A DNA stretch of 64,000 bases. Origin: Escherichia phage UE-S1. Made by a program: the position numbers and the translations under genes. The stretch lies in sequence record ON568341.1. One strand, 5' to 3'. Below the pieces are notes generated by a model, which saw nothing but the letters and a program-made list of their open reading frames with translations, was not told where the DNA came from and did no database searches. Positions within the stretch are counted from its first letter, which is position 1, and every line of letters starts with the position of its first letter. Of the stretch, positions 50,025 to 64,000 are shown piece by piece.

Positions 50025-50066
50025 ATTCCCTCCTTATTCATTATATCATATTTACCCAAAAAACAC

Positions 50067-50095: not shown

Positions 50096-50120
50096 AGAAG
50101 GAATATTAGGAGAACTACAT

Positions 50121-50557: not shown

Positions 50558-50558
50558 T

Positions 50559-50955: not shown

Positions 50956-51002
50956 AAACAGCACCAGGGTCCGAGTACTTTAACATAGTAAGGCTAATTA
51001 CA

Positions 51003-51188: not shown

Positions 51189-51196
51189 GGAATACT

Positions 51197-51376: not shown

Positions 51377-51386
51377 AGGAAACCAA

Positions 51387-52046
51387 ATGAAACTTAATGC
51401 ACACAGCAAACAATACCTTAAGCACTTTAAGTACCTCAACAGTATTCAAGCAGAATCTTTTACACCAGCATATACGTATCACCCTAATGTACTAAAGAAA
51501 CGAAATAAAAAGAAAAAATCCAGAAATGTTCTCGTATCTAAGAACCTCAAATCGTACTTGAAGAAAAATAATATAGCTCTTGCTTTTATTAATATCTATA
51601 ATACTGATTTAAAAGTATTGAGTACTAATACCAGCACAAAAGCACTAAAGAATGCATCTATCTATATACACATGGATAATATCCCGTGCACTATAATTCT
51701 ATCTTCCGGGAATGTATACTTCTTCGGGAATTGTAATAGCACCCATGATATCAGTACTGCACAATTCCAAATCGGAGATATGTACTGCATGGGTTCAGAA
51801 AAAATACACGATAATATGCACTTCTTCCAAAAGCAACGTACTAACGAAACTGATACAGTACTGCAATTCCTCAAAGAACTAGAACACAAAGAATTATCCG
51901 AGGAAGAAGAATTCATGTACAGTACTGTAATCGATAATCCAGGACTCTATAAAAACGCGTACAAACTAACAAAACATGTACAGGAACTTATCAGTACTGA
52001 TAAGAAAATTCATCACCTCATTACGTATATTTCAAACTATGTATAA
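51387..52046 (+). CDS. hypothetical protein (219 aa) within family C array
   Basis: Track ORF; basic N-terminal region. Confidence 0.5.
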   Translation: MKLNAHSKQYLKHFKYLNSIQAESFTPAYTYHPNVLKKRNKKKKSRNVLVSKNLKSYLKKNNIALAFINIYNTDLKVLSTNTSTKALKNASIYIHMDNIPCTIILSSGNVYFFGNCNSTHDISTAQFQIGDMYCMGSEKIHDNMHFFQKQRTNETDTVLQFLKELEHKELSEEEEFMYSTVIDNPGLYKNAYKLTKHVQELISTDKKIHHLITYISNYV

Positions 52047-52221
52047 AGAATACTACATAGAGAAACTCCCAATGCATCTACAACACCATATACCAAACGT
52101 TGCATTGGGCATAACCGAGCACGCAAAGATAATGTTCCAACAATGTACTAAGTACACGCTCATATACGATGATAATCCATATATGCTGTACTACGTAGTA
52201 ATGCTAACATTCAGGTACTAA
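52039..52221 (+). CDS. small protein, family C
   Basis: Track ORF trimmed; MYKEYYIEKLPMHL ... TFRY; ATGTATAA overlap. Confidence 0.55.
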   Translation: MYKEYYIEKLPMHLQHHIPNVALGITEHAKIMFQQCTKYTLIYDDNPYMLYYVVMLTFRY

Positions 52222-52222
52222 T

Positions 52223-52402
52223 ATGAATACTTATAAAGAATTCTACCTCTCGTACCTTAATTCCGATATAGTAACATCCAATACATTCAGTACTAAAATT
52301 ATCTATAATGAAGTAATGAAAGAATGTATTAAAGGTGCTATTAACCCTAAAGATACGTATGACTTGTACTATGCAGTACTAACCCTTGTTTTCACGAAAT
52401 AA
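52223..52402 (+). CDS. small protein, family C (59 aa, below track cut-off)
   Basis: TACTAATATGAATA junction; MNTYKEFYLSYL. Confidence 0.5.
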   Translation: MNTYKEFYLSYLNSDIVTSNTFSTKIIYNEVMKECIKGAINPKDTYDLYYAVLTLVFTK

Positions 52403-52410
52403 CACATAAT

Positions 52411-52602
52411 ATGAATAACCACAAAGAATACTACATAGAGAAACTCCCAATGTATCTCCAACACCTTCTACCAACAGAACCATTGCGTATAGAAAAAAAC
52501 TACGAAAAAGACTACTTCATTCAGTGCACTAAATCCTCGATATATATTGAAGACTATAATCGAGTACTGTATCACATCCTTTTACTAATATATAAGTACT
52601 AA
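52411..52602 (+). CDS. small protein, family C
   Basis: MNNHKEYYIEKLPMYL ... LLLIYKY. Confidence 0.55.
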   Translation: MNNHKEYYIEKLPMYLQHLLPTEPLRIEKNYEKDYFIQCTKSSIYIEDYNRVLYHILLLIYKY

Positions 52603-52603
52603 T

Positions 52604-52792
52604 ATGAATAACCACAAAGAATACTACACACAATTTCTCCCCAGCATTTTGGAACAATACGCCAGATATAAAGTCCCCCTCGATAACGATTTGGCAGTAC
52701 TGGGATTCAATAACTGCATAGAACGAAGTATAGAAAATAGTAATAGCTATGAACAATTATATAACACTATCCTACTTATATTCAGGTACTAA
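52604..52792 (+). CDS. small protein, family C
   Basis: MNNHKEYYTQFLP ... LLIFRY; TAATATG coupling. Confidence 0.55.
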   Translation: MNNHKEYYTQFLPSILEQYARYKVPLDNDLAVLGFNNCIERSIENSNSYEQLYNTILLIFRY

Positions 52793-52793
52793 T

Positions 52794-52982
52794 ATGTATA
52801 AAGAATACTACGCAAAATATTTCCCAATGTATCTCAGAACTAATCTATTAGATAAACCTCGCGATATCAATGCACAAAACGATAAAGTGTACTTTATTAT
52901 GTGCACTAAAGCATGTATACTAGATCATGACAGCTACCATCGAGTACTGTATCATACACTGTACCTAGCTTTCGTATACTAA
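52794..52982 (+). CDS. small protein, family C
   Basis: Track ORF trimmed; MYKEYYAKYFPMYL ... LAFVY. Confidence 0.55.
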   Translation: MYKEYYAKYFPMYLRTNLLDKPRDINAQNDKVYFIMCTKACILDHDSYHRVLYHTLYLAFVY

Positions 52983-52983
52983 A

Positions 52984-53042
52984 ATGTACTCCGGTTTAAT
53001 AGGACTAATATTCTTCTATGAATAATCATAAAGATTTCTACA
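52984..53042 (+). repeat. 59-bp near-identical direct repeat of 50728-50786 (gene-junction duplication)
   Basis: ATGTACTC(A/C)GGTTTAATAGGACTAATATTCTTCTATGAATAATCATAAAGATTTCTA present twice. Confidence 0.8.
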
Positions 53043-53197
53043 TAAGCCATCTGGATATAAACTCCCAAATGCTTATACTACTAAACACAATAGATTTCAA
53101 GGATAAGAAAAAGATCCAACAATTCATTGACCATACGGACCGTGCTGTGAACCAAAATTATATGTACTACATTCTCGCCCTAATATACAGGTACTAA
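53018..53197 (+). CDS. small protein, family C (59 aa, below track cut-off)
   Basis: MNNHKDFYISHL ... LALIYRY; preceded by duplicated junction. Confidence 0.5.
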   Translation: MNNHKDFYISHLDINSQMLILLNTIDFKDKKKIQQFIDHTDRAVNQNYMYYILALIYRY

Positions 53198-53198
53198 T

Positions 53199-53384
53199 AT
53201 GCATAGAGAATACTATATACAATTTGTTAAAGAAAACTACAAACACGCCGTCCCCGTAAACCCTTTAAATTCTAATGACCCAAGTACTATATTCTTGTTC
53301 CATGACGCAATACGTACAGTACTCAATACTAAAGATGAACAAGTGCAGTACGTATTCTTACTTTTACTTATATACAGACACTAA
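53199..53384 (+). CDS. small protein, family C
   Basis: MHREYYIQFV ... LLLIYRH. Confidence 0.55.
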   Translation: MHREYYIQFVKENYKHAVPVNPLNSNDPSTIFLFHDAIRTVLNTKDEQVQYVFLLLLIYRH

Positions 53385-53397
53385 AGCACTAACTAAT

Positions 53398-53598
53398 ATG
53401 AATAAAGAATATAAAGACTTCTATATAAGTAAACTAAAAGAAAATGAACAAGCATGGATTCAACCACTAATAATACTTCCATTTAATAGATATTCATTGA
53501 ACCGATGTACCGAGATTGCTATAGACCCTTGTCCTATTAAAGAGAATGTACAATACAATCAGTACTACTATATCTTAATGCTTATATATAGGAAGTAA
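53398..53598 (+). CDS. small protein, family C
   Basis: Track ORF trimmed; MNKEYKDFYISKL ... LMLIYRK. Confidence 0.55.
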   Translation: MNKEYKDFYISKLKENEQAWIQPLIILPFNRYSLNRCTEIAIDPCPIKENVQYNQYYYILMLIYRK

Positions 53599-54285
53599 TT
53601 AAACACATATAGACAGGGGAAGCTCCGTAGTGGAAGCATTATACAGGCTTTAACATATGTTGCATATGTTAAAATTCAGCCTGGACAAATGCGATCACTA
53701 GGATTCTCCCCAGGCTAAACCCCGTAACTCTACAGAGAAGCCAATAGCTTCTCTTTGTCATAGGTAGTCATAAGTAATCATATATAAACATTTAAGTAAT
53801 CATTCATACGCACGGTAGTGATTAGTATTGAGTACTAGAGTACAGGAATGTTCACGTTTAATCAAGAACGTAGCAGTACTGCCCCAAAAGTATTCAGTAC
53901 TGAAGGTGTCGATATCCCACTAAGTAGGCAGAGGAAGTCTGCCGTACTTTGTAGTTTCCAAGCTCCTTTTCCATTTTTCAAATTACATCAAATGTATTCA
54001 AAAGTAATCACGTAATGATTAGTACTGAATTATTACTTTCACCTTAATTCCAAATACTCTTTTACCCTTCGGGGAAAATCCCATTACCCCTTGAGGCTCC
54101 AGCAAAAAGTTGGAAAGTACTCCATCGTAAATCTGGATCGTAAAAATTTTGGAGTACCTATGAAATAAAAGTTGGATCTTCGAAAGTTGAAATTTACGTT
54201 GGGACATATAGGATTGATGGGATATAATGAGTTTTGTAGAGATACAGATTATACGATTTCAGTACTGAATAATGAAAGAAAGCTA

Positions 54286-54313
54286 TTGACTTTATGATTC
54301 AGTACTGTATAAT
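54286..54313 (+). promoter_or_regulatory. sigma-70-type promoter (TTGACT-16-TATAAT) with no downstream ORF
   Basis: TTGACTTTATGATTCAGTACTGTATAAT inside ORF-free region. Confidence 0.5.
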
Positions 54314-54689
54314 GTTCTATATAGAGAGATGAGTTGCCGCAAACAATTCATTCACTCTACCTCCTGTCGTGAGACAGTACAGAAAAGATAGTTCCTCCTA
54401 TGGGTGGTACATCTTTTTATAACCTCTTTTTTCGTAATATAAACAGTACTGATATTAACAGAATGGTGTCAGTACTGATTTTAATCTAATACAATACACC
54501 CACCAGCTTGTGCTGGTGGATTATCCACTAACAGTATTCAGTACTACATGATAGTCTTCATCCTCCTAGGGTAACATAGTGAGGGCTATTGTGGGAGTAC
54601 TGAATACTCCTTTCACAAGATAGATCTATGGTATAGTACTGACGGATTTTGGGCGTAGTAAGCCTAGGTTAAATTTAGACGTAGAGATG

Positions 54690-54835
54690 TCTAGACCTCC
54701 AGATGGTTGGAAGTAAAGATGGCTATCCCTCTAGGCGGCTGGATGGCTAGATTTCTAGATGGCTGTACTGCTAGACGTTTGGACGGCTAAACGGCTAGAT
54801 GGTTACACGTCTGGAAGTATAGACGGCTAAATCAA
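54690..54835. repeat. iteron-like cluster of short degenerate direct and inverted repeats
   Basis: Recurring CTAGATGG, GGCTAGAT and AGACGGCTAAA units. Confidence 0.6.
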
Positions 54836-55452
54836 AATTTTTATTCTGTTTTTTCCAATAGTTCCCCTACCGCGTGAGGATGTTTTTCCCCGCAGTATCT
54901 GGTGTTAGATTTTTCTGAATCTGGAATCATTATCTAATAAACTGGGGGCAATGTCAACGGCCTGGATGAATATTTTTAAAAAATAATCTAGTACTAAATT
55001 TTGGGCGTAACTATGCACCCGGTGGGCTTGAGTCTTTCTCGACTTGATGAAATAATTATATCAGTACTGGAAAAATAAAGCAATACCATGGAAGCAAAAA
55101 AGTTTTAATTAATTTGCTTGCTATCCTGGGCCGGACTATGGTACTATATTTCAGTACTGAGAAAGTGCGTTTACCTGCTAGGGTGCGGGAGTGTATCCTT
55201 TTTTTATATCTTGAATTTTGGGCGTAATTCCGCACCCTCTGGGGTTTCCGCTTTCTCGCGTCTATGTAGTAATTATACGCTTTTTTAGTACTGAGTCAAT
55301 AGCCAAAAACAAAATAATTGAAAATAATTTAACGCGTTTAAACGGCCTGTAAAGCCCTGAAATGATTAGAATGGTGCAAATGTATAGCTTAGGTGTATTA
55401 ATGCGTTAGAATGCGTCTGAGGCCGTTTTACGTGGTATAGGGATGATTTAGT

Positions 55453-55548
55453 GGATTGATTCAGTACTGAATAATAGTACTCCTATATAGAAAGATAGTT
55501 CCCCTGGATTGATTCAGTACTGAATAATAGTACTCCTATATAGAAAGA
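55453..55548 (+). repeat. tandem direct repeat (~43-bp unit, 2 copies, period ~53)
   Basis: GGATTGATTCAGTACTGAATAATAGTACTCCTATATAGAAAGA twice. Confidence 0.8.
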
Positions 55549-55579
55549 AAACTATTTTAAAAGTATTTGTAGAAAGTAC

Positions 55580-55607
55580 TTGCACAGTACTGAAAAAAGC
55601 GTATAAT
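55580..55607 (+). promoter_or_regulatory. early-type sigma-70 promoter (TTGCAC-16-TATAAT) followed by 5-prime stem-loop 55624-55636
   Basis: Conserved AGTACTTGCA..GCGTATAATGTTTTACATC module then GGGAA-CAC-TTCCC. Confidence 0.6.
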
Positions 55608-55661
55608 GTTTTACATCGAGAGCGGGAACACTTCCCTACTCACTTTTAAGAGATTAAAACG

Positions 55662-56024
55662 ATGGCGACTCAAATCACTAAAATCATTGCTAACCTGGTT
55701 AACTTCCGCGACGATATGAAAGATCTTCCGGCGGCAACGGTTAAAACTCACATTGACGCATACCGCGAACTGATTAAAATGTTGCCGCTTAAGCGTGAAC
55801 AATACGCCGCTAAACTGATGCTTGATGCGATGATCCATAAGATGATCGCCAGTGATTTGACGATGGTTTATCAGTATATGGGCGAAAATTTCGCGGTGTA
55901 TAGTAAACCAGTACCAGGAATGGAAAGTACAGAAGTATTACACGGTTTAAATTTAAAACAAGATGCATGGGATAATATGCCTCGTTTCCTGGTATGGGCT
56001 GACAGTGGCAAAATTTACGAATAA
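55662..56024 (+). CDS. hypothetical protein (120 aa)
   Basis: Track ORF; own promoter and 5-prime hairpin. Confidence 0.6.
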   Translation: MATQITKIIANLVNFRDDMKDLPAATVKTHIDAYRELIKMLPLKREQYAAKLMLDAMIHKMIASDLTMVYQYMGENFAVYSKPVPGMESTEVLHGLNLKQDAWDNMPRFLVWADSGKIYE

Positions 56025-56037
56025 GTTAAAAATTAGT

Positions 56038-56065
56038 TTGACAGTACTGAATAAAAGCGTATAAT
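56038..56065 (+). promoter_or_regulatory. early-type promoter (TTGACA-16-TATAAT) followed by stem-loop 56078-56096
   Basis: TTGACAGTACTGAATAAAAGCGTATAAT then GTGGGGAA-TAG-TTCCCCAC. Confidence 0.6.
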
Positions 56066-56116
56066 GTTTTACATCAGGTGGGGAATAGTTCCCCACTATA
56101 TAAGAGGATTAAAAAA

Positions 56117-56356
56117 ATGGCTAAATCAAAAATGTTCTTAGGTCACAAAAACAAAACTCATTGGAATGTAAGCCTGTGGATTAATAACGATGAGGGATTG
56201 TATCGGTTGGCCCTGGACTTTATTGCCGCCCATACTAATCGCAATGATGCGGCCCGTCATATGATGTTATTTTTAGAACAGACTGGACAAGATAAAACAC
56301 CGGACGGATTCAAATATAGCACTACTGCGATCCGTGCGGCGATGGTTGGAATGTAA
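56117..56356 (+). CDS. hypothetical protein, paralogue of 58157-58396
   Basis: Track ORF trimmed to ATG after AGAGGA; conserved GHKNKTHWNVSLWINN and PDGFKYSTTAIRAAMVGM. Confidence 0.55.
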   Translation: MAKSKMFLGHKNKTHWNVSLWINNDEGLYRLALDFIAAHTNRNDAARHMMLFLEQTGQDKTPDGFKYSTTAIRAAMVGM

Positions 56357-56442
56357 TAGAATTTATTTAAAGTACTATCATTTTTTTGCGATAGTACTTT
56401 ATAATAGTGTTTTATTCATACACCAACGATAAGGGCAACAGC

Positions 56443-56709
56443 ATGAATATTAAGTATTTTGCGACGCGTGAACAAGCTCGGATCGCCGCACGCCAGGACG
56501 GGGCAACGTTTAAAGATATGGGCGTACAATCGGAACGTGGTAAACGTTGGGCCATTGTAAAGCGTAGTACCGCCAGATCATTACAGTACTGGTTAGCGGC
56601 CTTAAAAAGTCCCGATAGTGTATCGCGTCGAGTGGTAGAAATAAAGCTCGACCGAAAGGGCAACCGCGTGACTGTGTACCGTACTAAAAAGATTGCAGTA
56701 CTTGAATAA
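56443..56709 (+). CDS. hypothetical protein
   Basis: Track ORF trimmed to ATG at MNIKYFATRE. Confidence 0.45.
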   Translation: MNIKYFATREQARIAARQDGATFKDMGVQSERGKRWAIVKRSTARSLQYWLAALKSPDSVSRRVVEIKLDRKGNRVTVYRTKKIAVLE

Positions 56710-56716
56710 AAAGTAC

Positions 56717-56744
56717 TTGCAAACTATGTTTAAAGGCGTATAAT
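56717..56744 (+). promoter_or_regulatory. early-type promoter (TTGCAA-16-TATAAT) followed by stem-loop 56759-56775
   Basis: TTGCAAACTATGTTTAAAGGCGTATAAT then GCGGGAA-CTC-TTCCCGC. Confidence 0.6.
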
Positions 56745-56796
56745 GTTTTACATCGAGAGCGGGAACTCTTCCCGCCTATAACCTGGAGTAATAAAA

Positions 56797-57027
56797 ATGA
56801 CTAATATGTATATGACTGAAGTTAAAACCGTAAAAGATACTACCACGAATAAAACTACTTACTTACAGCGGATCTGTGGTGTATGGCAACGTATCAGCAA
56901 ATCAAAGTACTTTAAATTAACATCATATGCAAACCGTTCGGATTCATTCAGTACTGAAATAAAAGGTAATAAAGTACACCAATACGGCACTTATTATTAT
57001 TACAGCCTGGACGCGATTGCAGTATAA
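56797..57027 (+). CDS. hypothetical protein (76 aa)
   Basis: Track ORF after promoter, hairpin and GGAG RBS. Confidence 0.55.
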   Translation: MTNMYMTEVKTVKDTTTNKTTYLQRICGVWQRISKSKYFKLTSYANRSDSFSTEIKGNKVHQYGTYYYYSLDAIAV

Positions 57028-57278
57028 TCATATTTTTTGAAAAATTTACAATTGCCGGTATTGACTTATTTTGTCAGTACTGGCATAATGTATTCATTGG
57101 CAGATAAGCCGTAGCCCATAGGGTGCGGGAGTGTATCTATAGAAAAATTAGTTTAGTATAGTTACAATTGTGCACCCGGTGGGTTAGCTGTTGTCATGGG
57201 GTATATTATGCCAGTACTTGATAATGCTGTCAATACTTTTTTTACTATTCAGTACTGAAAACTATTTTTAAAAAGTAC

Positions 57279-57306
57279 TTGCTAACTATGTTTAAAGGCG
57301 TATAAT
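57279..57306 (+). promoter_or_regulatory. early-type promoter (TTGCTA-16-TATAAT) with stem-loop but no ORF
   Basis: Promoter and ACGGGG..CCCCGT hairpin with no ATG before the next promoter. Confidence 0.5.
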
Positions 57307-57394
57307 GTTTTACATCAGGACGGGGAACGAAATAAGTAACCCCGTTAAGTAGTCCAGGAGTAAGACATACGAAAAACTCCCCTGATAAAATAGT

Positions 57395-57422
57395 TTGACA
57401 AATGTTTTTAAAAGCGTATAAT
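57395..57422 (+). promoter_or_regulatory. early-type promoter (TTGACA-16-TATAAT)
   Basis: TTGACAAATGTTTTTAAAAGCGTATAAT upstream of 57455 gene. Confidence 0.6.
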
Positions 57423-57454
57423 ACTTACATCAACTACTGAATGAGGGTTACAAA

Positions 57455-58066
57455 ATGAAAACTATCACTACTACTACTTTTGTTATGGCTTTTTCTGAAC
57501 TGAACGCAGAACAAAAAACGGCGGCTATCGAACTGGTTCGGGATCGTGAGCGTTCATGTGAGGATAATTTCTTTGCTGAGGGCGTTATCGAGTACTATAA
57601 AGAAACAGTACTACCAGAATACGGCATAGATGAAGCTGAATTGCAATACAGTGGTTTTTGGTCGCAAGGTGACGGTGCATCAATCAGTACTGACAGCGTG
57701 GACGCGGAGAAGTTTTTACGCAAGATTAAAGCGTTAACGAAATATCGTTCTATCCGTCACTTGTTGAATGAAGATGATTTGGCAATGAGTGTAGAACGTT
57801 CACACTCTCGCTACGCACACGAAAACACGGTAAGCGGTTGCGTTGATACTCGCTACACTGATTTAACTGTAAAACAAGCGGCACTTGCTGATGACCTGGA
57901 AAACTTACTGACTGATGCGATCCGTGAATTATCTCGTAAGTTGTACCGTGATTTAGAGAATGCATATGAGGATCAATTCACTACTGAAAACATTACTGCA
58001 CTGATTGAGGGTAACGAATATCAATTCAATGTTATTGATGGCGTAGTGGAATCAATCGAATATTAA
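57455..58066 (+). CDS. acidic hypothetical protein (203 aa)
   Basis: Track ORF with GAGGG RBS; D/E-rich. Confidence 0.6.
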   Translation: MKTITTTTFVMAFSELNAEQKTAAIELVRDRERSCEDNFFAEGVIEYYKETVLPEYGIDEAELQYSGFWSQGDGASISTDSVDAEKFLRKIKALTKYRSIRHLLNEDDLAMSVERSHSRYAHENTVSGCVDTRYTDLTVKQAALADDLENLLTDAIRELSRKLYRDLENAYEDQFTTENITALIEGNEYQFNVIDGVVESIEY

Positions 58067-58156
58067 TTCAAAAAGTACTTGTAAACTAAGTTTAAAAGCG
58101 TATAATACTTTACATCAAGGCGGGGAGTGGTTCCCCGCTCAAACGAGGATTTAAAA

Positions 58157-58396
58157 ATGGCTAGTACTAAAACTTACAACGGACACAAAAACAAAACTCA
58201 TTGGAATGTAAGCCTTTGGATTAATAACGGTGAGTCATTGTATCGGCTTGCACAAAGTTGCATCGCACAAAGTAGAACTAAAGATATTGCTGCGGAATGT
58301 ATGTACCGCAGATTAAAAGCCAACGGTACTACTACAACACCGGACGGATTCAAATATAGCACTACTGCGATCCGTGCTGCAATGGTTGGAATGTAA
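58157..58396 (+). CDS. hypothetical protein, paralogue of 56117-56356
   Basis: Track ORF trimmed to ATG after GAGGA; conserved N- and C-terminal blocks. Confidence 0.55.
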   Translation: MASTKTYNGHKNKTHWNVSLWINNGESLYRLAQSCIAQSRTKDIAAECMYRRLKANGTTTTPDGFKYSTTAIRAAMVGM

Positions 58397-58453
58397 TATT
58401 CAGTACTGAGATAATGGCGGGTAATAGTTCCCGCCTTTACTGAGGGTTATCTA

Positions 58454-58714
58454 ATGAGTAAAGTAATTAGCTATACAGCACTAAGCAAGACATTATCTAT
58501 TAGCCAGTGCACCGATGGTTATTGGCTATTTGATGAAACGCGTGGCATGAATTTAGCCATGCGTGCAAAAACTGCTGAGGCGGCGTATCTTGAAGCATTG
58601 GAATACTACCAGGAACGTTTAAAGGAAGTAGAAGAAGATTATAAAAGCCTCAAAGCGAAAGTAGATCATTTCGTCGGTCAATTCATCGAGGAAGACGACG
58701 ACAAACAATATTGA
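58454..58714 (+). CDS. hypothetical protein (86 aa)
   Basis: Track ORF after GCGGG..CCCGCC hairpin and GAGGG RBS. Confidence 0.55.
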   Translation: MSKVISYTALSKTLSISQCTDGYWLFDETRGMNLAMRAKTAEAAYLEALEYYQERLKEVEEDYKSLKAKVDHFVGQFIEEDDDKQY

Positions 58715-58800
58715 AAAAGTACTTGCAATTAGTTTTCAGTACTGTATAATGGTTTACATCAAAGGGAGAAATGGTTCTCCCTGGTAATGAGGAAAATAAA

Positions 58801-59022
58801 ATGGCTAATATCACTACTCTTTCCCAACTGGAAGCACTGGTGAAATCTATGCGGGAACATGCCGACAAAATCGGCGTACAAGATCCAGCCGTTTGCTTCT
58901 GCGACGAATTGAATGATGATACACTGGTAATAGCAGAAGTCCAGGACGTTTCTAACTATTCCTCGCGTTACACTGGCGGCGTAGCAAATAAAGGCGACTT
59001 CTGTTTATACCTTACAAAATAA
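58801..59022 (+). CDS. hypothetical protein
   Basis: Track ORF trimmed to ATG after promoter, GGGAGAAATGGTTCTCCC hairpin and GAGGAAAA RBS. Confidence 0.55.
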   Translation: MANITTLSQLEALVKSMREHADKIGVQDPAVCFCDELNDDTLVIAEVQDVSNYSSRYTGGVANKGDFCLYLTK

Positions 59023-59265
59023 CAACGCGGGGAGATAATAACTCCCCGTTACTTTTTCAGTACTGAATCATTTAATAGACGGATCTCGGCACCCGGTGGG
59101 TTAGTGACTGTTTCGTCTTGATGTAGTAATTATGCCAGTACTGGATGCACTTGTCAACAACTATTTTTCAAATACTTTTTATTAAAATACTTGCAATTAG
59201 TTTTTAAACGCGTATAATGTTTTGCATAGGGGGAGCGGTTCCCCTGGTAACTAAGGAATAAGAAA

Positions 59266-59502
59266 ATGCTCGAACAAATCAAATCAACGTCTGCGAATGT
59301 AACGGGAACTGTATCACACTTTACTAGTGATGAATCGCGTGGTGTTCCTTATTGTGCTGTACATGTAAACACTGATGGCAACTACTGGTTTACGGTTTAC
59401 GGATCATATTCATTTGGTCGGCCAGGACATCAAAAAATCCTGGATAAAGTACAGCCAACGGGTAAAAATATCACTGCTGAAATGTTTTATAAAAAATCAT
59501 AA
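59266..59502 (+). CDS. hypothetical protein (78 aa)
   Basis: Promoter, GGGGGAGCGGTTCCCC hairpin, AAGGAA RBS. Confidence 0.55.
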   Translation: MLEQIKSTSANVTGTVSHFTSDESRGVPYCAVHVNTDGNYWFTVYGSYSFGRPGHQKILDKVQPTGKNITAEMFYKKS

Positions 59503-59586
59503 AGTACTTGATAATAGTTTTTAGTACTGTATAATATTTTACATCGCAAGGGGGAGCGGTTCCCCCTGGTAACTAAGGATAATAAA

Positions 59587-59886
59587 ATGAAAATTGCAAT
59601 CATCGCCCTGGCTTTATCTGTTTCCTCTTTCGCTGTTAATGCGTCATTAGATGTAAGTAGTGAAAAATTCATTCAGTGCACTGTTGCAATGACCGATGAA
59701 AGTACTGGCGAGATTGTATTAAAGGATTTAGAGATCCAGCCGGAAGCATTTAAAAACGGCCCGTTCCATGAAGAAGACGAAAACGGTAGCACATCAATTT
59801 ATTATGATGCCAGTACTAAACGCGGTTCGGTCACTGTAATGGATACTGAGAAAGTAACGCATACCGGCGTTATTAATTGCCGTTGA
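59587..59886 (+). CDS. secreted small protein (signal peptide)
   Basis: MKIAIIALALSVSSFAVNA; promoter and hairpin upstream. Confidence 0.6.
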   Translation: MKIAIIALALSVSSFAVNASLDVSSEKFIQCTVAMTDESTGEIVLKDLEIQPEAFKNGPFHEEDENGSTSIYYDASTKRGSVTVMDTEKVTHTGVINCR

Positions 59887-59907
59887 TAGATACTACGGGG
59901 TAACATC

Positions 59908-60138
59908 ATGACTAAGCGAATTGTTTTACTTAACGAAAGCAGTACTACACAACTACTTAACGCCGTGCATTATGATATTGAAACGAGCGTTAATCTTATC
60001 AGTACTGTAGTACTGTTGGACACTGGAAAGGTCGCCAATGATAAAGCGATTGCAGGTATATTAACGGATCTTGAGCCTGGTAGCAGTGCACCAATAACGT
60101 TAAATGGTAAAGTGTTTAATATTTTACTCACTGATTAA
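59908..60138 (+). CDS. hypothetical protein (76 aa)
   Basis: Track ORF followed by terminator. Confidence 0.5.
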   Translation: MTKRIVLLNESSTTQLLNAVHYDIETSVNLISTVVLLDTGKVANDKAIAGILTDLEPGSSAPITLNGKVFNILLTD

Positions 60139-60144
60139 GTACAT

Positions 60145-60166
60145 AGCCCACCTGGTGGGCTTTTTT
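60145..60166 (+). terminator. intrinsic terminator
   Basis: AGCCCAC-CTG-GTGGGCT plus T6. Confidence 0.7.
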
Positions 60167-60371
60167 GTTTTTGTAGTATCGTAGTACTGAGATACTTTGA
60201 AAATAGTTTTAAGAAAGTAGTTGACATTACCGCAGAAAAGCGTAGAATGTATTACATCAAGACGGGGAGCACTAAGTAGACCGCCAGTAAGTCGAACGAA
60301 AAACTGGACACGTCGAGAAAACTTTGATACACTAATAAACGTAAACTAAACTTTAATTGAGGATTTATAAA

Positions 60372-60854
60372 ATGGCTAATGTAAAATCATTTCTGAAAGC
60401 ACTGATTTCTAACGACACTGCTATTGCGGCTGAATTGCTGGCGGATCTGGATAGCGATACCATGAAAGCAGTACGCAACAATTTTAACATTGCGTACAGT
60501 GAAGCTAAAGAACTGCAAGCCAAAAAGATAGCAGAACTGGAAGAACAGAAAAAAGCCCGTGAAGAAGAACTACAAGCAACGATTGAAAGTATTCAGGCGG
60601 CGGTTGCAGGGTTGGATCTGGAAGTAGTTATTGAAATGGCACATAAAGCACTGGCAGTTAAGTACGGGGAAGATAAGCCAGTAACTAAACCTAAAAAATG
60701 GATTCAGGAACGCGTAACGGTTGTTCTTGATAATGGCGAGGAACATTTAATTCCCGTGCGTGGTAACTGCATTGCGGTAGTTCTGGATGCTATCAAAGAA
60801 AGCGGATTGACTCGCGAGGAATGGATCGAAGCTCACCGCAAAATTGAAGCATAA
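60372..60854 (+). CDS. hypothetical protein (predicted coiled coil)
   Basis: Track ORF trimmed to ATG after GAGGA; promoter TTGACA..TAGAAT upstream. Confidence 0.55.
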   Translation: MANVKSFLKALISNDTAIAAELLADLDSDTMKAVRNNFNIAYSEAKELQAKKIAELEEQKKAREEELQATIESIQAAVAGLDLEVVIEMAHKALAVKYGEDKPVTKPKKWIQERVTVVLDNGEEHLIPVRGNCIAVVLDAIKESGLTREEWIEAHRKIEA

Positions 60855-60875
60855 CAATTAAAGTACTGAATCACT

Positions 60876-60902
60876 AGCCCACTTCTTATAGTGGGCTTTT
60901 TT
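60876..60902 (+). terminator. intrinsic terminator
   Basis: AGCCCAC-TTCTTATA-GTGGGCT plus T6. Confidence 0.65.
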
Positions 60903-61129
60903 GTGTTTATCGTTTACCAGTCCACTAGCACCGCCTAGAATCGATTCTAACGCATTAAACTGATTATCTGATGAATAGCCCTAGCTGGTGGCGTTAATGC
61001 CGTTAGAAAGCGATTGAGGACGTTTAAAGTATTTTGCAAAAAGTAATAAAAAGTACTTGCACGATTAAGAGATTAGAGTATAATTAATTACATCAAGACA
61101 AGACACCTTAACTAACTGAGGATATAAAG

Positions 61130-61282
61130 ATGAATACTTATGAACTGGATTGTTTCACTTTACAAGTAATGTCAGTATGCAGTAAAAAAGATTGGTCATC
61201 AAAGGAATTTAAAGCAGTTATTGCGTGTGCAAAACACGGCAAGACTATCAATGAAACGGCATCAATCATTGATAAACTTTAA
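61130..61282 (+). CDS. hypothetical small protein (50 aa, below track cut-off)
   Basis: ATG after GAGGATATAAAG; own promoter upstream. Confidence 0.45.
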   Translation: MNTYELDCFTLQVMSVCSKKDWSSKEFKAVIACAKHGKTINETASIIDKL

Positions 61283-61290
61283 AAAATAGT

Positions 61291-61319
61291 TTGACAATAG
61301 TTTTAAGTACTGCGATAAT
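61291..61319 (+). promoter_or_regulatory. early-type promoter (TTGACA-17-GATAAT)
   Basis: TTGACAATAGTTTTAAGTACTGCGATAAT. Confidence 0.5.
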
Positions 61320-61354
61320 ACATACATCAACTACTGAATAGGAATAAAAAAACA

Positions 61355-61582
61355 ATGGCTATCATCATTACTTACGTATCTGGTACTACTGGCACTGCTT
61401 CAACTGTTGCTGTAATTACTAATAAGAAAGGAGCGGAATTACATTTTGCAATGGATAATTGGGCCGTGAAGGAGTTCGGACCGTGGGCAAGTGTAGCATA
61501 CATTGAAACCTATCAAGTGCCATCGATTAGCTTAACTGATTTAGGTGTAGATCGAATCTTATGCCTGGATGAATTAATTTAA
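61355..61582 (+). CDS. hypothetical protein (75 aa)
   Basis: Track ORF. Confidence 0.5.
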   Translation: MAIIITYVSGTTGTASTVAVITNKKGAELHFAMDNWAVKEFGPWASVAYIETYQVPSISLTDLGVDRILCLDELI

Positions 61583-61668
61583 AAAAGTACTTGCAAAGTA
61601 AATCGAATAAAGTATAATACATTACATCAAGGGGAGAAAATGGTTCTCCCCACTAAGAGGAAACTAAT

Positions 61669-61812
61669 ATGAAAACTTGTCAATGTGGTAAAAAATCTAT
61701 TACTGGTTTGAAACGGGGCGTTGCACTTTGCCAGTACCATTATAATTTACAAGTATGGGGTAAAGAATGGGCCGATCAAGTGGAAGCAATTAAGAAAGCA
61801 AAAAGTAAGTAA
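61669..61812 (+). CDS. Cys-rich small protein (47 aa), possible zinc ribbon
   Basis: MKTCQCGKK...ALCQYHYN; promoter, GGGGAGAAAATGGTTCTCCCC hairpin and AGAGGA RBS upstream. Confidence 0.45.
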   Translation: MKTCQCGKKSITGLKRGVALCQYHYNLQVWGKEWADQVEAIKKAKSK

Positions 61813-61893
61813 AAATATTATCACAGTACTATTGACATAGATTGATAGTACTGGCATAATAGATTTTATCAAGACAACTAAGAGGAAATTAAA

Positions 61894-62238
61894 ATGGCTA
61901 ACATCAATACTATAGCAGCACAAAATATTAACCTGTCTTCTGTTGAAGTTGTACACATTGCCGCCCGGCGTTGGTTCCAGGCGTCTTATGGTAATACTTA
62001 TTTCTCTTTAACGGTAGATGTTGAAATCAATGGCGAATTTATTGAAGTAGTAAACGTGCCGTTCCAATATGGCTACGGGGATCATTTTGACACTGTAGCA
62101 ATGGAAGAATTTAGCAAGGTTATTAATATGGAAGGTAAAGAGTTTTTACGCGGTTCTTATCTTTCCCGTTTTTGCCGTGATAATAATATTACTGTTTATA
62201 GTTCTGTTAGTGATGTTAAACGCAAAAAAGATCTTTAA
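61894..62238 (+). CDS. hypothetical protein (114 aa)
   Basis: Track ORF; promoter TTGACA..CATAAT upstream, AGAGGA RBS. Confidence 0.55.
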   Translation: MANINTIAAQNINLSSVEVVHIAARRWFQASYGNTYFSLTVDVEINGEFIEVVNVPFQYGYGDHFDTVAMEEFSKVINMEGKEFLRGSYLSRFCRDNNITVYSSVSDVKRKKDL

Positions 62239-62318
62239 TTAGCTTTACTTTATGCAGATACTTTGATATAGTGTCTGCATAGGGGAAAGAAATTAAATCA
62301 ACTTAAGAGGATAGTAAA

Positions 62319-62588
62319 ATGAAAAATATCAGTACTTTAATCGATGCAGGCACACATGTTCGTCGGTCTATGGTTGCAACCAGTTCTACAAAACAAGTAG
62401 CGAGCGGTTATCTTGTATTTGTGCACGATGGAAAACTCCTGGAACGTTCAATCAATTTTGATGTTAAAAACAATTGCCGTTTTATTATCTTTAAGCGTGA
62501 GCAATATAAAATTGATTTACCAGCAAAGCCCATTAGTGGGGCGTACAACGTGCAATCATTGTTTGAGCGTCAACCATACACCTATTAA
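62319..62588 (+). CDS. hypothetical protein (89 aa)
   Basis: Track ORF after hairpin and AGAGGA RBS. Confidence 0.55.
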   Translation: MKNISTLIDAGTHVRRSMVATSSTKQVASGYLVFVHDGKLLERSINFDVKNNCRFIIFKREQYKIDLPAKPISGAYNVQSLFERQPYTY

Positions 62589-62639
62589 TCAAAACAACGT
62601 TAGCGGTCGATTTAGGCCGCTTATACTGGGGATTATATA

Positions 62640-62810
62640 ATGAATACTAATCAAGTACTGAACGAGATTGAAAGCATCATTAAACCGATGAAGCGTACTG
62701 ATGCAATGTTAACACCGGAAGAATGCCGCTTATATGAGCGTTACAGCGTCGAACAAGTCCAGGCAATGGCCCGTATCCGTCCGGTTGCCAGTACTGATAA
62801 GGCGGCGTAA
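62640..62810 (+). CDS. hypothetical small protein (56 aa, below track cut-off)
   Basis: ATG after GGGG; followed by TAATATG-coupled next gene. Confidence 0.4.
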   Translation: MNTNQVLNEIESIIKPMKRTDAMLTPEECRLYERYSVEQVQAMARIRPVASTDKAA

Positions 62811-62811
62811 T

Positions 62812-63021
62812 ATGCTTACTGTACAGGATAAGATCGACATCTTAAAGGTTAATATGTATGTGATTGATGCCGTACCTGGTAAAGTATTTGCATACGATGA
62901 CACCACTGTAAGCAATTTCTACTATAGCCAGGACGTGGGGGATCTTTCTGTACAGTCGGTTATTGAAAATGTAGTTAATGCAGCGTATGAGCATTTACTT
63001 TCAAATAGTACTTGCAATTAG
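62812..63021 (+). CDS. hypothetical protein
   Basis: Track ORF 62734 trimmed to ATG coupled to upstream stop. Confidence 0.45.
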   Translation: MLTVQDKIDILKVNMYVIDAVPGKVFAYDDTTVSNFYYSQDVGDLSVQSVIENVVNAAYEHLLSNSTCN

Positions 63022-63090
63022 TTTTCAGTACTGTATAATGTTTTACATGAAGGGGAGAAATAGTACTCCCCACTAATTAAGGAATATGAA

Positions 63091-63237
63091 ATGAAAGCAT
63101 CAAAAAAGAGTAATACTAAGAAAGCATGTTCACCTTTCGCTGGGGTATTCCCTTTACGTTTCGTTGATGAAGTGGTTTCCTACCCGCCGGGCCTTACTCC
63201 TGAGATGGTAGAAAGTTTGCGTAAATCTAAAAAATAA
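63091..63237 (+). CDS. hypothetical small protein (48 aa, below track cut-off)
   Basis: Promoter, GGGGAGAAATAGTACTCCCC hairpin and AAGGAA RBS upstream. Confidence 0.45.
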   Translation: MKASKKSNTKKACSPFAGVFPLRFVDEVVSYPPGLTPEMVESLRKSKK

Positions 63238-63318
63238 TACTTGCAATTAGTTTTTAGTACTGTATAATGTTTTACATGAAGGGGAGAAATGATTCTCCCC
63301 AAGAACAGGAGAAACAAA

Positions 63319-63471
63319 ATGAAACAATACAACGCTCGGTTTGATGTTACTATCGGCAACGGCAAAGGTCAATTCTCTTTCAGTACTCGTAAGAGTTATA
63401 CAGAAAACTTCTTGCGTAATTGTGCACTGACCGCCGCACAAATTAAACATTATTTTCAGGCTAAAAAATGA
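63319..63471 (+). CDS. hypothetical small protein (50 aa)
   Basis: Track ORF 63289 trimmed to ATG after AGGAGA; promoter and hairpin upstream. Confidence 0.5.
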   Translation: MKQYNARFDVTIGNGKGQFSFSTRKSYTENFLRNCALTAAQIKHYFQAKK

Positions 63472-63557
63472 AATCATTAGCTTATTATAGTTCGGCCCTG
63501 GTCGGTGCATTGATCGCGGCATTGTTAGTAGCTTATCTATTCTTTATGGTGATTTAA
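63468..63557 (+). CDS. possible 29-aa hydrophobic micro-protein
   Basis: ATGA overlap with previous stop; single TM-like helix. Confidence 0.3.
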   Translation: MKSLAYYSSALVGALIAALLVAYLFFMVI

Positions 63558-63695
63558 ATGAATCCTAACGGTATAATTTACAGTACTCCTAAAACGAAAG
63601 CAGATAAAGCTAAAGCACGTAAAGCGAAAGTAAAGGAATACATCAAGCAAGGCATGACACGAAAGGCGGCGATTCTAAAAGCTAAAAATAAATGA
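63558..63695 (+). CDS. hypothetical small basic protein (45 aa)
   Basis: ATG directly after previous stop (TAAATG); K/A-rich; followed by terminator. Confidence 0.4.
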   Translation: MNPNGIIYSTPKTKADKAKARKAKVKEYIKQGMTRKAAILKAKNK

Positions 63696-63702
63696 AAAAA
63701 GT

Positions 63703-63726
63703 GGTTGACTTCGGTCAGCCATTTTG
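63703..63726 (+). terminator. intrinsic terminator (weaker T-run)
   Basis: GGTTGAC-TTCG-GTCAGCC then ATTTTG. Confidence 0.55.
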
Positions 63727-63916
63727 CTATTATATAATCATTGAGAGATAGCTCACTAGCCCACGGGGTGCGGGAGTGTATCTATTATATAAGCATTGAG
63801 TACTGAAAACTATTTTAAAAGTATTTGCAGAAAGTACTTGCAAACTATCTCAATTGGCGTATAATGTTTTACATCGCAAGGGGAAACGGTTTCCCCTAGT
63901 AATAAGGAATAAAATC

Positions 63917-64000
63917 ATGACTATTGCAATTGTACAATCTAACTTTGAAAATGAAATCATCGCCCAAGCACTGCGTTTAAATGATGGTCGGGCCGAAATT
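63917..64000 (+). CDS. hypothetical protein, 5-prime partial (runs off window)
   Basis: Promoter TTGCAA..TATAAT, GGGGAAACGGTTTCCCC hairpin, AAGGAA RBS, ATG at 63917. Confidence 0.5.
   Translation, partial: MTIAIVQSNFENEIIAQALRLNDGRAEI

What the first reader, a model, noticed from the sequence alone, without database searches (positions are those of the whole stretch)
55570..64000. About 17 promoter plus 5-prime stem-loop cassettes, each driving one small gene (PeSL-like)
Nearly every gene is preceded by the same module: AAAGTACTTGCAA..(16-17 nt)..TATAATGTTTTACATC, then a GC-rich hairpin of the form GGGGAG-loop-CTCCCC, then an AGGA-type RBS and ATG. This matches the promoter-early-stem-loop (PeSL) elements described in T4-type phages as mobile regulatory cassettes flanking hyperplastic-region ORFs. 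The hairpin sequesters a GGAG and could stabilise the mRNA 5-prime end, be a nuclease target, or be an operator. Two cassettes (near 57279 and 54286) lack any ORF.
Basis: partly seen in the sequence, partly recalled or inferred. Interest (0 to 1): 0.7.

Follow-up and report, generated by a model that had tools for sequence, protein, structure and literature searches.

The report
Repeated early promoter–hairpin gene cassettes
The terminal repeat of this giant E. coli phage carries a row of near-identical strong host-type promoters, most followed by a small RNA hairpin and one short gene of unknown function. This is a known style of phage early-gene cassette (PeSL-like), here in a phage group where I found no prior description of it and with the hairpin inside the mRNA leader rather than inside the promoter.

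Summary
Fifteen + strand copies of AAAGTACTTGCAA-N16-TATAAT-GTTTTACATC lie between 55.6 and 63.9 kb and nowhere else in the 64 kb window. Ten are followed 12-14 nt after the -10 box by a 7-9 bp GGGGA..TCCCC hairpin (-11.5 to -15.2 kcal/mol), then a Shine-Dalgarno sequence and ATG; an eleventh hairpin (55602) is degenerate.

The window is an Asteriusvirus-type jumbo coliphage. The array is the first ~10 kb of its ~21 kb direct terminal repeat, which starts near 53,923. In relatives the cassettes fill that repeat and stop at its end.

Across 66 distinct copies the stem is 97% paired, 6 of 8 pairs show compensatory changes, and G·U far outnumbers A·C. So pairing is selected in the sense-strand RNA. 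No hairpin has a U-tract, so they are not terminators.

Whole-gene insertions, deletions and replacements between relatives break inside the cassettes.

Verdict: PeSL-like early expression cassettes outside the T4 group, with the hairpin in the transcribed leader. I did not find this variant described. The same leader design occurs in Phapecoctavirus and in Salmonella jumbo phage Munch. The hairpin's role is inferred: most likely an mRNA stabiliser. Moderate interest.

The parts
53923..64000 (+). First ~10 kb of the ~21 kb direct terminal repeat (DTR) of an Asteriusvirus-type jumbo phage. The repeat and the cassette array continue beyond the window end.
   Evidence: Base 1 of vB_Ec-M-J (annotated 21.5 kb DTR) and of fEgEco12 (DTR confirmed experimentally, PMC13070987) aligns to window 53923.
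54286..54360 (+). First promoter of the DTR (TTGACT-16-TATAAT), followed by a hairpin (GATGAGTTG..CAATTCATT). No ORF follows. Lies outside the finding's coordinates.
   Evidence: Conserved about 390 nt from the physical genome end in L001 and L002.
55568..55661 (+). Cassette 1: -35 TTGCAC, -10 at 55602, degenerate hairpin 55620-55641, SD, then ORF 55662-56024 (120 aa).
56026..56116 (+). Cassette 2: TTGACA-16-TATAAT (-10 at 56060), hairpin 56077-56097, then ORF 56117-56356 (79 aa, DUF7249).
56369..56442 (+). Variant: inverted repeat with AGTACT arms (AAAGTACTATC..GATAGTACTTT) abutting TATAAT at 56400. No leader hairpin. Then ORF 56443-56709.
   Evidence: Read from sequence. The same design is common in phage Munch.
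56705..56796 (+). Cassette 3: -10 at 56739, hairpin 56756-56777, then ORF 56797-57027 (76 aa).
57267..57400 (+). Cassette 4: consensus promoter (-10 at 57301) driving an ORF-less ~75-nt closed structure (AUCAGG...CCUGAU, -21 kcal/mol). It runs straight into cassette 5.
   Evidence: The module occurs twice per DTR in relatives.
57383..57454 (+). Cassette 5: TTGACA-16-TATAAT (-10 at 57417), no hairpin, then ORF 57455-58066 (203 aa).
58067..58156 (+). Cassette 6: -10 at 58101, hairpin 58119-58139, then ORF 58157-58396 (paralogue of ORF 56117).
58386..58453 (+). Variant: weak TTGGAA-18-GATAAT abutting hairpin 58416-58435, then ORF 58454-58714. This is the only covariance-model hairpin hit in the window that lacks a consensus promoter.
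58711..58800 (+). Cassette 7: -10 at 58745, hairpin 58763-58782, then ORF 58801-59022. Terminator at 59027-59049.
59179..59265 (+). Cassette 8: -10 at 59213, hairpin 59227-59246, then ORF 59266-59502.
59496..59586 (+). Cassette 9: -10 at 59530, hairpin 59549-59567, then ORFs 59587-59886 and 59908-60138. Terminator at 60145.
60209..60371 (+). Cassette 10: TTGACA-16-TAGAAT (-10 at 60243) with a 118-nt leader related to that of cassette 4, then ORF 60372-60854. Terminator at 60876.
61045..61129 (+). Cassette 11: -10 at 61079, no hairpin, then ORF 61130-61282 (50 aa; absent from vB_Ec-M-J and phAPEC6).
61291..61354 (+). Variant promoter TTGACA-17-GATAAT with extended -10 TG, no hairpin, then ORF 61355-61582.
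61579..61668 (+). Cassette 12: -10 at 61613, hairpin 61631-61651, then ORF 61669-61812 (47 aa).
61832..61893 (+). Variant promoter TTGACA-17-CATAAT with extended -10 TG, no hairpin, then a four-gene operon 61894-63021. A promoter-less hairpin at 62602-62621 precedes ORF 62640.
63000..63090 (+). Cassette 13: -10 at 63034, hairpin 63052-63071, then ORF 63091-63237 (48 aa).
63229..63318 (+). Cassette 14: -10 at 63263, hairpin 63281-63300, then ORFs 63319-63471, 63468-63557 and 63558-63695. Terminator at 63698.
63826..63917 (+). Cassette 15: -10 at 63860, hairpin 63879-63897, then an ORF starting at 63918 that runs off the window.

Best explanation
These are the early (host-takeover type) expression cassettes of the direct terminal repeat of an Asteriusvirus-type jumbo coliphage.

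Each unit has an A-tract plus AGTACT, a near-consensus sigma-70 promoter (TTGCAA/TTGACA, 16 nt, TATAAT), a conserved start region (ACATC), a 7-9 bp G-rich/C-rich hairpin at about +6 to +28 of the mRNA, an exposed Shine-Dalgarno sequence, and the start codon of a small ORFan.

Host RNA polymerase would fire these promoters as soon as the DNA end enters the cell.

The hairpin works as RNA. Its most likely role is as a structural block near the 5' end that slows 5'-end-dependent attack and scanning by RNase E, while keeping the ribosome site free of upstream sequence. That would give short early mRNAs high, uniform output.

Because about 90 nt of near-identical sequence flanks every gene, the cassettes also serve as homology for recombination that inserts, deletes and swaps single genes, as proposed for PeSLs.

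**Shown:** the motif, its location in the DTR, sense-strand RNA pairing under selection, absence of terminator features, and breakpoints inside cassettes.

**Inferred:** early timing, transcription start site, promoter strength, the stabiliser role, and recombination as the cause of the breakpoints.
For: **Motif statistics and confinement.** The motif is restricted to 55.6-63.9 kb on the + strand.

**Location in the DTR.**
- The region is 88-96% identical to Asteriusvirus genomes, and base 1 of two end-defined genomes maps to window 53923.
- In fEgEco12 (DTR of 20,993 bp confirmed by restriction digests, PMC13070987) the cassettes run from 388 to 20102. None occur in the next 3 kb, where genes become overlapping operons.
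- In that DTR 23 promoters carry the leader hairpin. In the 53.9 kb of this window outside the DTR only 1 of 120 promoter-like sites does.

**Early timing, by analogy.** In the related jumbo phage PA5oct, DTR genes are the highly transcribed early class and depend on host RNA polymerase (10.1101/679506).

**RNA-level structure.**
- 66 distinct copies: 97.3% of cells paired, 6 of 8 pairs with changes on both sides, 0 of 500 shuffles as good.
- G·U occupies 41 cells against 2 for U·G. In 30 distinct hairpins, internal G·T outnumbers A·C by 9 to 1.
- Loops vary in sequence and length (3-8 nt), as expected for a generic structural element.

**Coupling to the promoter.**
- Distance from the -10 box to the loop centre is 22.0 ± 1.2 nt. 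Distance from the loop to the ATG is 29.1 ± 2.0 nt.
- All 19 model hits in fEgEco12 have the promoter at the fixed distance.
- The SD and AUG are unpaired in every minimum-free-energy fold.

**Precedent (my own knowledge).** 5' stem-loops stabilise E. coli mRNAs (ompA, papA; Emory 1992 and Bouvet & Belasco 1992, listed in PMC3997798). The T7 gene 10 leader hairpin GGGAGACCACAACGGUUUCCC resembles the one at 63879. Structures obstruct RNase E scanning (Richards & Belasco 2019).

**Shuffling.** 20 of 38 homology breakpoints against five relatives fall in cassettes, which cover 21% of the region. Seven whole-gene indels or replacements have both ends in cassettes. Three insertions show 45-60 nt cassette-length overlaps.
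Against: - No transcription data exist for this phage group. The start site, the timing and the half-lives are all inferred.
- With the likely start at the A of ACATC, 5-8 nt stay unpaired 5' of the hairpin. In the classic ompA work that is too many for direct protection of the 5' end, so the stabiliser idea has to rest on the scanning-obstacle model.
- The loop-closing A-U pair is invariant (66 of 66) and the GGRA/UYCC core is strongly conserved. Pure stability would not require this. It could instead mean recognition by a factor, or simply shared ancestry.
- Four of 15 cassettes lack the canonical hairpin, so it is not essential.
- The covariation alignment was fitted to the model's structure, and many copies are related by descent.
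- Breakpoints at cassettes are also what selection for intact gene units would produce without any special recombination.
Confidence: 0.55

Rival explanations
1. The hairpin is the binding site of a phage-encoded (or host) regulator. This could be an RNA-binding repressor or nuclease that shuts off early mRNAs at the switch to middle genes. Alternatively, a dimeric DNA-binding repressor could sit on the palindrome at +6 to +28 and block early transcription.
For: - One shared element marks most early units and sits right at the 5' edge of the ribosome-binding region.
- The apical A-U pair is invariant and the GGRA..UYCC core is conserved beyond what stability needs.
- The same core appears in unrelated coliphage lineages.
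- T4 uses global early-mRNA regulators, RegA and RegB (PMC3014915; the details are my own knowledge).
Against: - Loop sequence and length vary freely.
- The stem base shows compensatory changes, and the G·U versus A·C asymmetry argues against a DNA operator.
- GGAG is buried in the stem, which is the opposite of a RegB-type target.
- No candidate binding protein was identified. The small ORFs have no known function.
Confidence: 0.2
2. The hairpin is a PeSL-type attenuator or terminator. It would stop or damp read-through from the upstream unit so that each gene is expressed only from its own promoter.
For: - PeSL stem-loops of very similar sequence (GCGGGGAgaaaTCCCCGC in JSE) were reported to terminate as well as rrnB T1 in a lacZ test (PMC2839356).
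- Most units here lack any other terminator.
Against: - There is no U-tract: at most 4 T, usually 1-2, in the 8 nt after 79 distinct hairpins.
- None is called terminator-like, whereas canonical terminators occur separately at 59027, 60145, 60876 and 63698.
- The hairpin lies downstream of the promoter it accompanies. It would therefore act on its own transcript as much as on read-through.
Confidence: 0.1
3. The hairpin has no role in expression. It is part of a repeated, recombination-prone DNA module (palindrome-assisted template switching or mini-circle formation) that persists because it spreads genes.
For: - Cassette-bounded indels and cassette-length overlaps at insertion junctions.
- Spacer sequences that a promoter does not need are shared between non-adjacent cassettes.
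- A promoter-hairpin-gene unit is shared at 86% identity with a Phapecoctavirus.
Against: - Compensatory changes and G·U tolerance show selection on pairing in the sense RNA, not only shared descent.
- The position relative to the -10 box and the SD is fixed.
Confidence: 0.1

Closest known systems
PeSL (promoter-early stem-loop) cassettes of T4-like phages RB49/phi1/JSE, PST/T4 and nt-1/KVP40 (Arbiol 2010; Comeau 2014)
   Same: - Near-consensus sigma-70 early promoter with an AT-rich upstream region.
- A Gn-loop-Cn stem-loop of almost the same sequence.
- SD and ATG of a small ORFan.
- Dense arrays in the plastic part of the genome.
- Indels and replacements bounded by the cassettes.
   Different: - The host phage is an Asteriusvirus-type jumbo phage, and the array fills a direct terminal repeat.
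- The stem-loop lies in the transcribed leader (+6 to +28), not in the spacer, over the -10 box or upstream of the -35 box.
- There is no terminator signature.
- AGTACT is built into the promoter.
Host-takeover module in the terminal redundancy of Bacillus phage SPO1, and the pre-early genes in the terminal repeat of T5 (own knowledge)
   Same: Many small early genes of unknown or host-shutoff function, each with a strong host-polymerase promoter and strong ribosome site, housed in a long terminal repeat.
   Different: Different phages, hosts and promoter sequences. As far as I know, no repeated leader hairpin has been described for them.
5'-terminal stabiliser hairpins: ompA and papA 5' UTRs, and the T7 gene 10 (phi10) leader (own knowledge; references listed in PMC3997798)
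   Same: A short GC-rich stem-loop near the 5' end of an mRNA, followed by an exposed strong ribosome site. The T7 leader GGGAGACCACAACGGUUUCCC resembles GGGGAAACGGUUUCCCC at 63879.
   Different: Those hairpins start within 0-4 nt of the 5' end. Here 5-8 nt are predicted to be unpaired. The function was not tested here.
Early-gene upstream regions of Phapecoctavirus phiWec190 and of Salmonella jumbo phage Munch
   Same: - phiWec190: TTGACA-N17-TAAGAT..ACGTAG-GGCGGCAatggTGCCGCC-..AGAGAGA..ATG before about 15 small genes.
- Munch: TATAATgatttgcataGGGGGAAacatcTTCCCCC..ATG.
- Both have the same order and spacing as the cassettes here.
   Different: The hairpin sequences differ. Munch also mixes in PeSL-type units with the stem-loop over the -10 box. 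Phapecoctavirus is an unrelated 150 kb myovirus.

Membership tests
PeSL (T4-like phage promoter-early stem-loop cassettes) | Resident in a T4-like (Straboviridae) phage genome | tested here: not met
   Best matches are Asteriusvirus jumbo phages at 88-96% identity.
PeSL (T4-like phage promoter-early stem-loop cassettes) | [quoted passage not shown] | tested here: met
   10-12 of 12 matches to TTGACA/TATAAT with a 16-nt spacer and an A-tract upstream. Activity was not measured.
PeSL (T4-like phage promoter-early stem-loop cassettes) | Associated stable stem-loop, typically poly-G then poly-C | tested here: met
   GGGGA(R)..(Y)TCCCC stems at -11.5 to -15.2 kcal/mol in 10 of 15 cassettes, supported by covariation.
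PeSL (T4-like phage promoter-early stem-loop cassettes) | Stem-loop placed within or upstream of the promoter so that it terminates or attenuates incoming transcription | tested here: not met
   The stem-loop starts 12-14 nt after the -10 box, has no U-tract and is not terminator-like. JSE PeSLs have it in the spacer or over the -10 box. The papers' rare 'downstream of -10' subclass is the nearest match.
PeSL (T4-like phage promoter-early stem-loop cassettes) | Concentrated in hyperplastic regions, upstream of ORFans | tested here: met
   Confined to the DTR. The ORFs have no known function.
PeSL (T4-like phage promoter-early stem-loop cassettes) | Indels and replacements between close relatives are bounded by the cassettes | tested here: met
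   Seven whole-gene events have both ends in cassettes. 20 of 38 breakpoints fall in the 21% of sequence covered by cassettes. Selection for intact units would give the same pattern.
PeSL (T4-like phage promoter-early stem-loop cassettes) | Formation of encapsidated mini-circles by recombination between neighbouring cassettes | not testable with these tools
   Needs outward-facing PCR on phage DNA.
5'-terminal mRNA stabiliser hairpins (ompA/T7 gene 10 type) | Hairpin within about 0-4 nt of the mRNA 5' end | tested here: inconclusive
   The start site is not mapped. With a start at the A of ACATC, 5-8 nt are unpaired.
5'-terminal mRNA stabiliser hairpins (ompA/T7 gene 10 type) | Pairing, rather than sequence, is what is conserved, on the RNA strand | tested here: met
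5'-terminal mRNA stabiliser hairpins (ompA/T7 gene 10 type) | Removing the hairpin shortens mRNA half-life in an RNase E-dependent way | not testable with these tools
   Needs rifampicin-chase experiments.
Intrinsic (Rho-independent) terminators | GC-rich hairpin followed directly by a U-tract | tested here: not met

The most novel reading that the evidence does not exclude
The promoter + GGGGA..UCCCC leader hairpin + SD unit may be a horizontally mobile expression cassette shared by several unrelated lineages of virulent enterobacterial phages: Asteriusvirus, Munch-like jumbo phages, Phapecoctavirus, and, with the hairpin shifted into the promoter, Krischvirus PeSLs. It would carry single ORFans between lineages. 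Its conserved hairpin core would be kept because a common host or phage factor reads it, not merely for stability.
Probability: 0.25. Interest if true: 0.65.

Novelty: new variant of a known kind. Interest (0 to 1): 0.45.

Why it matters
It extends the PeSL idea, promoter cassettes as units of both expression and gene shuffling, from T4-like phages to jumbo phages and phAPEC8-like phages.

It defines a distinct leader-hairpin architecture supported by covariation.

It gives a simple rule for finding the immediate-early gene set and its transcription units in about 200 sequenced Asteriusvirus-type genomes. These units hold dozens of unknown small proteins that are candidates for host takeover or anti-defence roles.

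The compact 90-nt promoter-hairpin-SD unit could also be a useful strong expression part for E. coli.

Tried and rejected
- **First regex scans.** The TTGCAA-N17-TATAAT scan was no better than chance (31 found against 26 expected) because the spacer is 16 nt. A looser regex flooded the output.
- **Plain MAFFT plus RNAalifold on 11 leaders.** This recovered only 5 pairs because the stems are out of register. I replaced it with a covariance model.
- **Rfam.** Nothing meaningful in 52-64 kb; one sub-threshold Trp-leader hit sits over the terminator at 60876.
- **PHROGs and Pfam on the small ORFs.** Only families of unknown function, including DUF7249. One call failed on wrong coordinates.
- **RNase III site.** Rejected: the stems are only 7-9 bp.
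- **RegB-type GGAG target.** Rejected as stated, because GGAG is paired.
- **SD-sequestering switch** (3' arm pairing with the SD). Complementarity exists only in cassette 14, so it is not general.
- **N4-type DNA hairpin promoters.** Considered and dropped, because good sigma-70 promoters sit directly upstream.
- **PA5oct, the Pseudomonas relative.** Its DTR has no such cassettes, so the design is not general to the RaK2-like clade.
- **Literature.** Papers on CBB, phAPEC6, Sharanji, fEgEco12 and rV5 predict sigma-70 promoters or terminal repeats. None mentions a leader hairpin or PeSLs.
- **First generic promoter/hairpin classifier.** It under-called promoters and was rewritten.

Full report

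Yes. Reading 53.5-64 kb shows the repeated module. A regex for TA[TG]AAT-N5-7-CAT finds 15 + strand copies between 55602 and 63860, each with AAAGTACTTGCAA upstream.

A weight matrix built from them carries about 38 bits. It scores the 15 sites at 25-62 bits. There are no - strand sites and only three weak hits (14-20 bits) elsewhere in the 64 kb window. The best score in 50 shuffles was 13.8. The matrix was trained on these same sites, so I looked for independent support:
- The repeat finder returns 14 copies of a 54-nt repeat and 7 copies of a 103-nt repeat spanning the -35 box to past the ATG.
- The generic sigma-70 scan matches these sites at 10-12 of 12 positions with a 16-nt spacer.

Ten leaders fold into a 6-9 bp G-rich/C-rich hairpin of -11.5 to -15.2 kcal/mol, with the SD and AUG left single-stranded. 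One hairpin (55602) is degenerate. Two leaders (57417, 61079) have none. Two (57301, 60243) carry a longer related leader.

Single-sequence z-scores are modest (-1.4 to -3.9). The regularity across copies is what matters.

About 13 of 24 ORFs have the consensus module. The others use variant promoters (61291, 61832, 58386) or lie in short operons.

**2. What and where is it?**

The region is 88-96% identical to Asteriusvirus-type jumbo coliphages such as WPEC5, phAPEC6, 121Q and G17.

In vB_Ec-M-J it lies inside an annotated 21.5 kb direct terminal repeat. In fEgEco12 the 20,993 bp repeat was confirmed by PhageTerm and restriction digests (PMC13070987). Base 1 of both genomes aligns to window 53923. 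The finding is therefore the first ~10 kb of the terminal repeat.

In fEgEco12 the cassettes run from 388 to 20102, all on one strand. The next 3 kb has none, and genes there become overlapping operons. A looser count gives 23 leader-hairpin promoters in that repeat. The 53.9 kb of this window outside the repeat has 1 among 120 promoter-like sites.

The ORFs are ORFans: PHROGs of unknown function and one DUF7249.

In the related phage PA5oct, terminal-repeat genes are the highly transcribed early class and depend on host RNA polymerase (10.1101/679506). Early timing here is inferred from that, from the sigma-70 consensus, and from the analogy with SPO1 and T5 (my own knowledge).

**3. The hairpin is an RNA element, not a terminator.**

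I built a covariance model from seven copies. In the window it hits only the ten cassette hairpins, 58409, and one weak site at 32058.

Across the window and seven other loci (five Asteriusvirus relatives plus phiWec190 and Munch) it aligns 109 hits, 66 of them distinct:
- 97.3% of cells are paired.
- 6 of 8 pairs have changes on both sides, in 64 cells.
- No shuffle of 500, and no slid register, comes close.

G·U occupies 41 cells against 2 for U·G. With equal penalties, internal G·T outnumbers A·C by 9 to 1 in 30 distinct hairpins. This asymmetry is expected for pairing in the sense RNA. It is not expected for a DNA palindrome bound by a dimer. Two caveats apply: the alignment is fitted to the model, and the copies are related.

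Position is rigid. The -10 box to the loop centre is 22.0 ± 1.2 nt. The loop centre to the ATG is 29.1 ± 2.0 nt. All 19 hits in fEgEco12 have the promoter at the fixed distance.

By the usual rule for sigma-70 start-site choice (my own knowledge), transcription starts at the A or CA of ACATC. The whole stem is therefore transcribed, beginning at about +6.

No hairpin is followed by a U-tract, and none is called terminator-like. Canonical terminators sit separately at 59027, 60145, 60876 and 63698.

**4. Comparison with PeSLs.**

The PeSL papers define a sigma-70-like early promoter joined to a Gn-loop-Cn stem-loop. The stem-loop is said to terminate upstream transcription. The elements sit before ORFans in hyperplastic regions and mediate indels and mini-circles (PMC2839356, PMC4122927).

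I read real PeSLs from the RB49-like phage JSE. They are TTGACG-CGGGGAGAAATCCCCG-CTATAAT (stem in the spacer) and TTGACA..GGGGGTAgTAAGATACCCCC (stem over the -10 box). The stem sequence is nearly the same as here, but the placement differs.

Comparison with five relatives shows 20 of 38 homology breakpoints inside cassettes, which cover 21% of the region. Seven whole-gene insertions, deletions or replacements have both ends in cassettes. Three insertions show 45-60 nt overlaps equal to one cassette. This fits PeSL-style shuffling. Selection for intact units would give the same picture.

The elements are therefore PeSL-like in composition and behaviour. They fail two defining features: the T4-like host, and a stem-loop placed to act as a terminator.

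**5. Wider distribution.**
- Salmonella jumbo phage Munch has both the leader-hairpin type and the PeSL type in its terminal region. It also has a third type in which AGTACT-containing arms bracket the -35 box. The window has one degenerate example of that third type at 56369-56405.
- Phapecoctavirus phiWec190 is an unrelated 150 kb myovirus. It has the same order of parts before about 15 small genes, with a different stem (GGCGGCAatggTGCCGCC). One unit carries a homologue of the window gene at 56117, at 86% nucleotide identity including the promoter and hairpin.
- The Pseudomonas relative PA5oct lacks the design.
- Papers on CBB, phAPEC6, Sharanji, fEgEco12 and rV5 report sigma-70 promoters or terminal repeats but no leader hairpin.

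**6. Mechanism.**

Best supported: immediate-early transcription by host polymerase, with an RNA hairpin that stabilises and insulates the short mRNAs. This is analogous to the ompA, papA and T7 gene 10 leaders (references listed in PMC3997798). The cassette homology drives modular gene exchange.

The weak points are the 5-8 unpaired nucleotides ahead of the stem and the invariant apical A-U pair. Both leave room for a regulator-binding role. The attenuator reading and the DNA-only reading are less likely, for the reasons given in section 3.

**7. Verdict.**

This is a real, highly non-random feature. It is a new variant of a known kind, in a phage group and a genome compartment where I found no prior description of it. 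The hairpin's function is untested. Interest is moderate (0.45).

Noticed in passing
whole window; densest at 50000-64000: AGTACT is the most over-represented hexamer: 211 copies against about 22 expected. It runs at about 5 per 2 kb throughout and 12-19 per 2 kb in the terminal repeat, usually in the context TCAGTACTGA. It is built into the cassettes (AAAGTACTTGCAA; CAGTACTGTATAAT). Pairs of it can form weak stems around the -35 box. Several GC-rich 6-bp palindromes are absent altogether. The function is unknown; it could be a factor-binding or modification site.
   Followed up: partly
53923-55560: The first ~1.7 kb of the terminal repeat has no convincing ORF. It holds a tandem 44-nt exact repeat (55452 and 55505). 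It also holds promoter-like sites on both strands (54286 +, 54957 -, 55299 -), some of them convergent, and terminator-like hairpins at 54444, 54498 and 55180.
   Followed up: partly
55001-55290, 57059-57243, 59080-59167, 63698-63790: Repeated small non-coding units. One motif, CGTAA..GCACCCGGTGGG.., has 3 copies and is read from - strand promoters at about 55060, 55277, 57215 and 59140. Another, TAGCCCAyrGGGTGCGGGAGTGTATC, also has 3 copies and is read from + strand promoters (57061, 63705). At 57.06-57.24 kb the two are convergent and would overlap, giving a possible sense/antisense RNA pair. No Rfam or tRNA match.
   Followed up: partly
57312-57386 (related leader at 60254-60371): An ORF-less, ~75-nt closed RNA structure (AUCAGG...CCUGAU, -21 kcal/mol). 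It is driven by a consensus cassette promoter and followed at once by a second, hairpin-less promoter. The tandem module occurs twice per terminal repeat in fEgEco12, phAPEC6, WPEC5 and G17. It may be a small RNA or a regulatory leader.
   Followed up: partly
33790-33830, 35075-35112, 63698-63733: Composite terminator/promoter sites: a hairpin GGGTTGACtttgGTCAGCCC whose 5' arm contains the -35 box TTGAC, followed by a T-run and then TATAAT or TATTAT. This is the classic PeSL arrangement with the stem-loop over the -35 box, and it occurs outside the cassette array too.
   Followed up: no
58789-58818, 61882-61911, 62307-62336, 57443-57472, 61343-61372: Cassette similarity continues into the first codons (GAGGAAAATAAAATGGCTAAYATCAMTACT). 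Otherwise unrelated small proteins therefore start MANITT, MANINT, MKNIST, MKTITT or MAIIIT. Either recombination junctions reach into the coding region, or selection favours an A/T-rich initiation region.
   Followed up: no
56117-56356 and 58157-58396: Two paralogous 79-aa DUF7249 genes lie 2 kb apart, each with its own cassette. Homologues at 75-92% nucleotide identity occur in many rV5-like and phAPEC8-like phages.
   Followed up: partly
71-4849: A cluster of five tRNA genes (Ser, Met, Asn, Thr and one with an odd anticodon loop) at the far end of the window.
   Followed up: no
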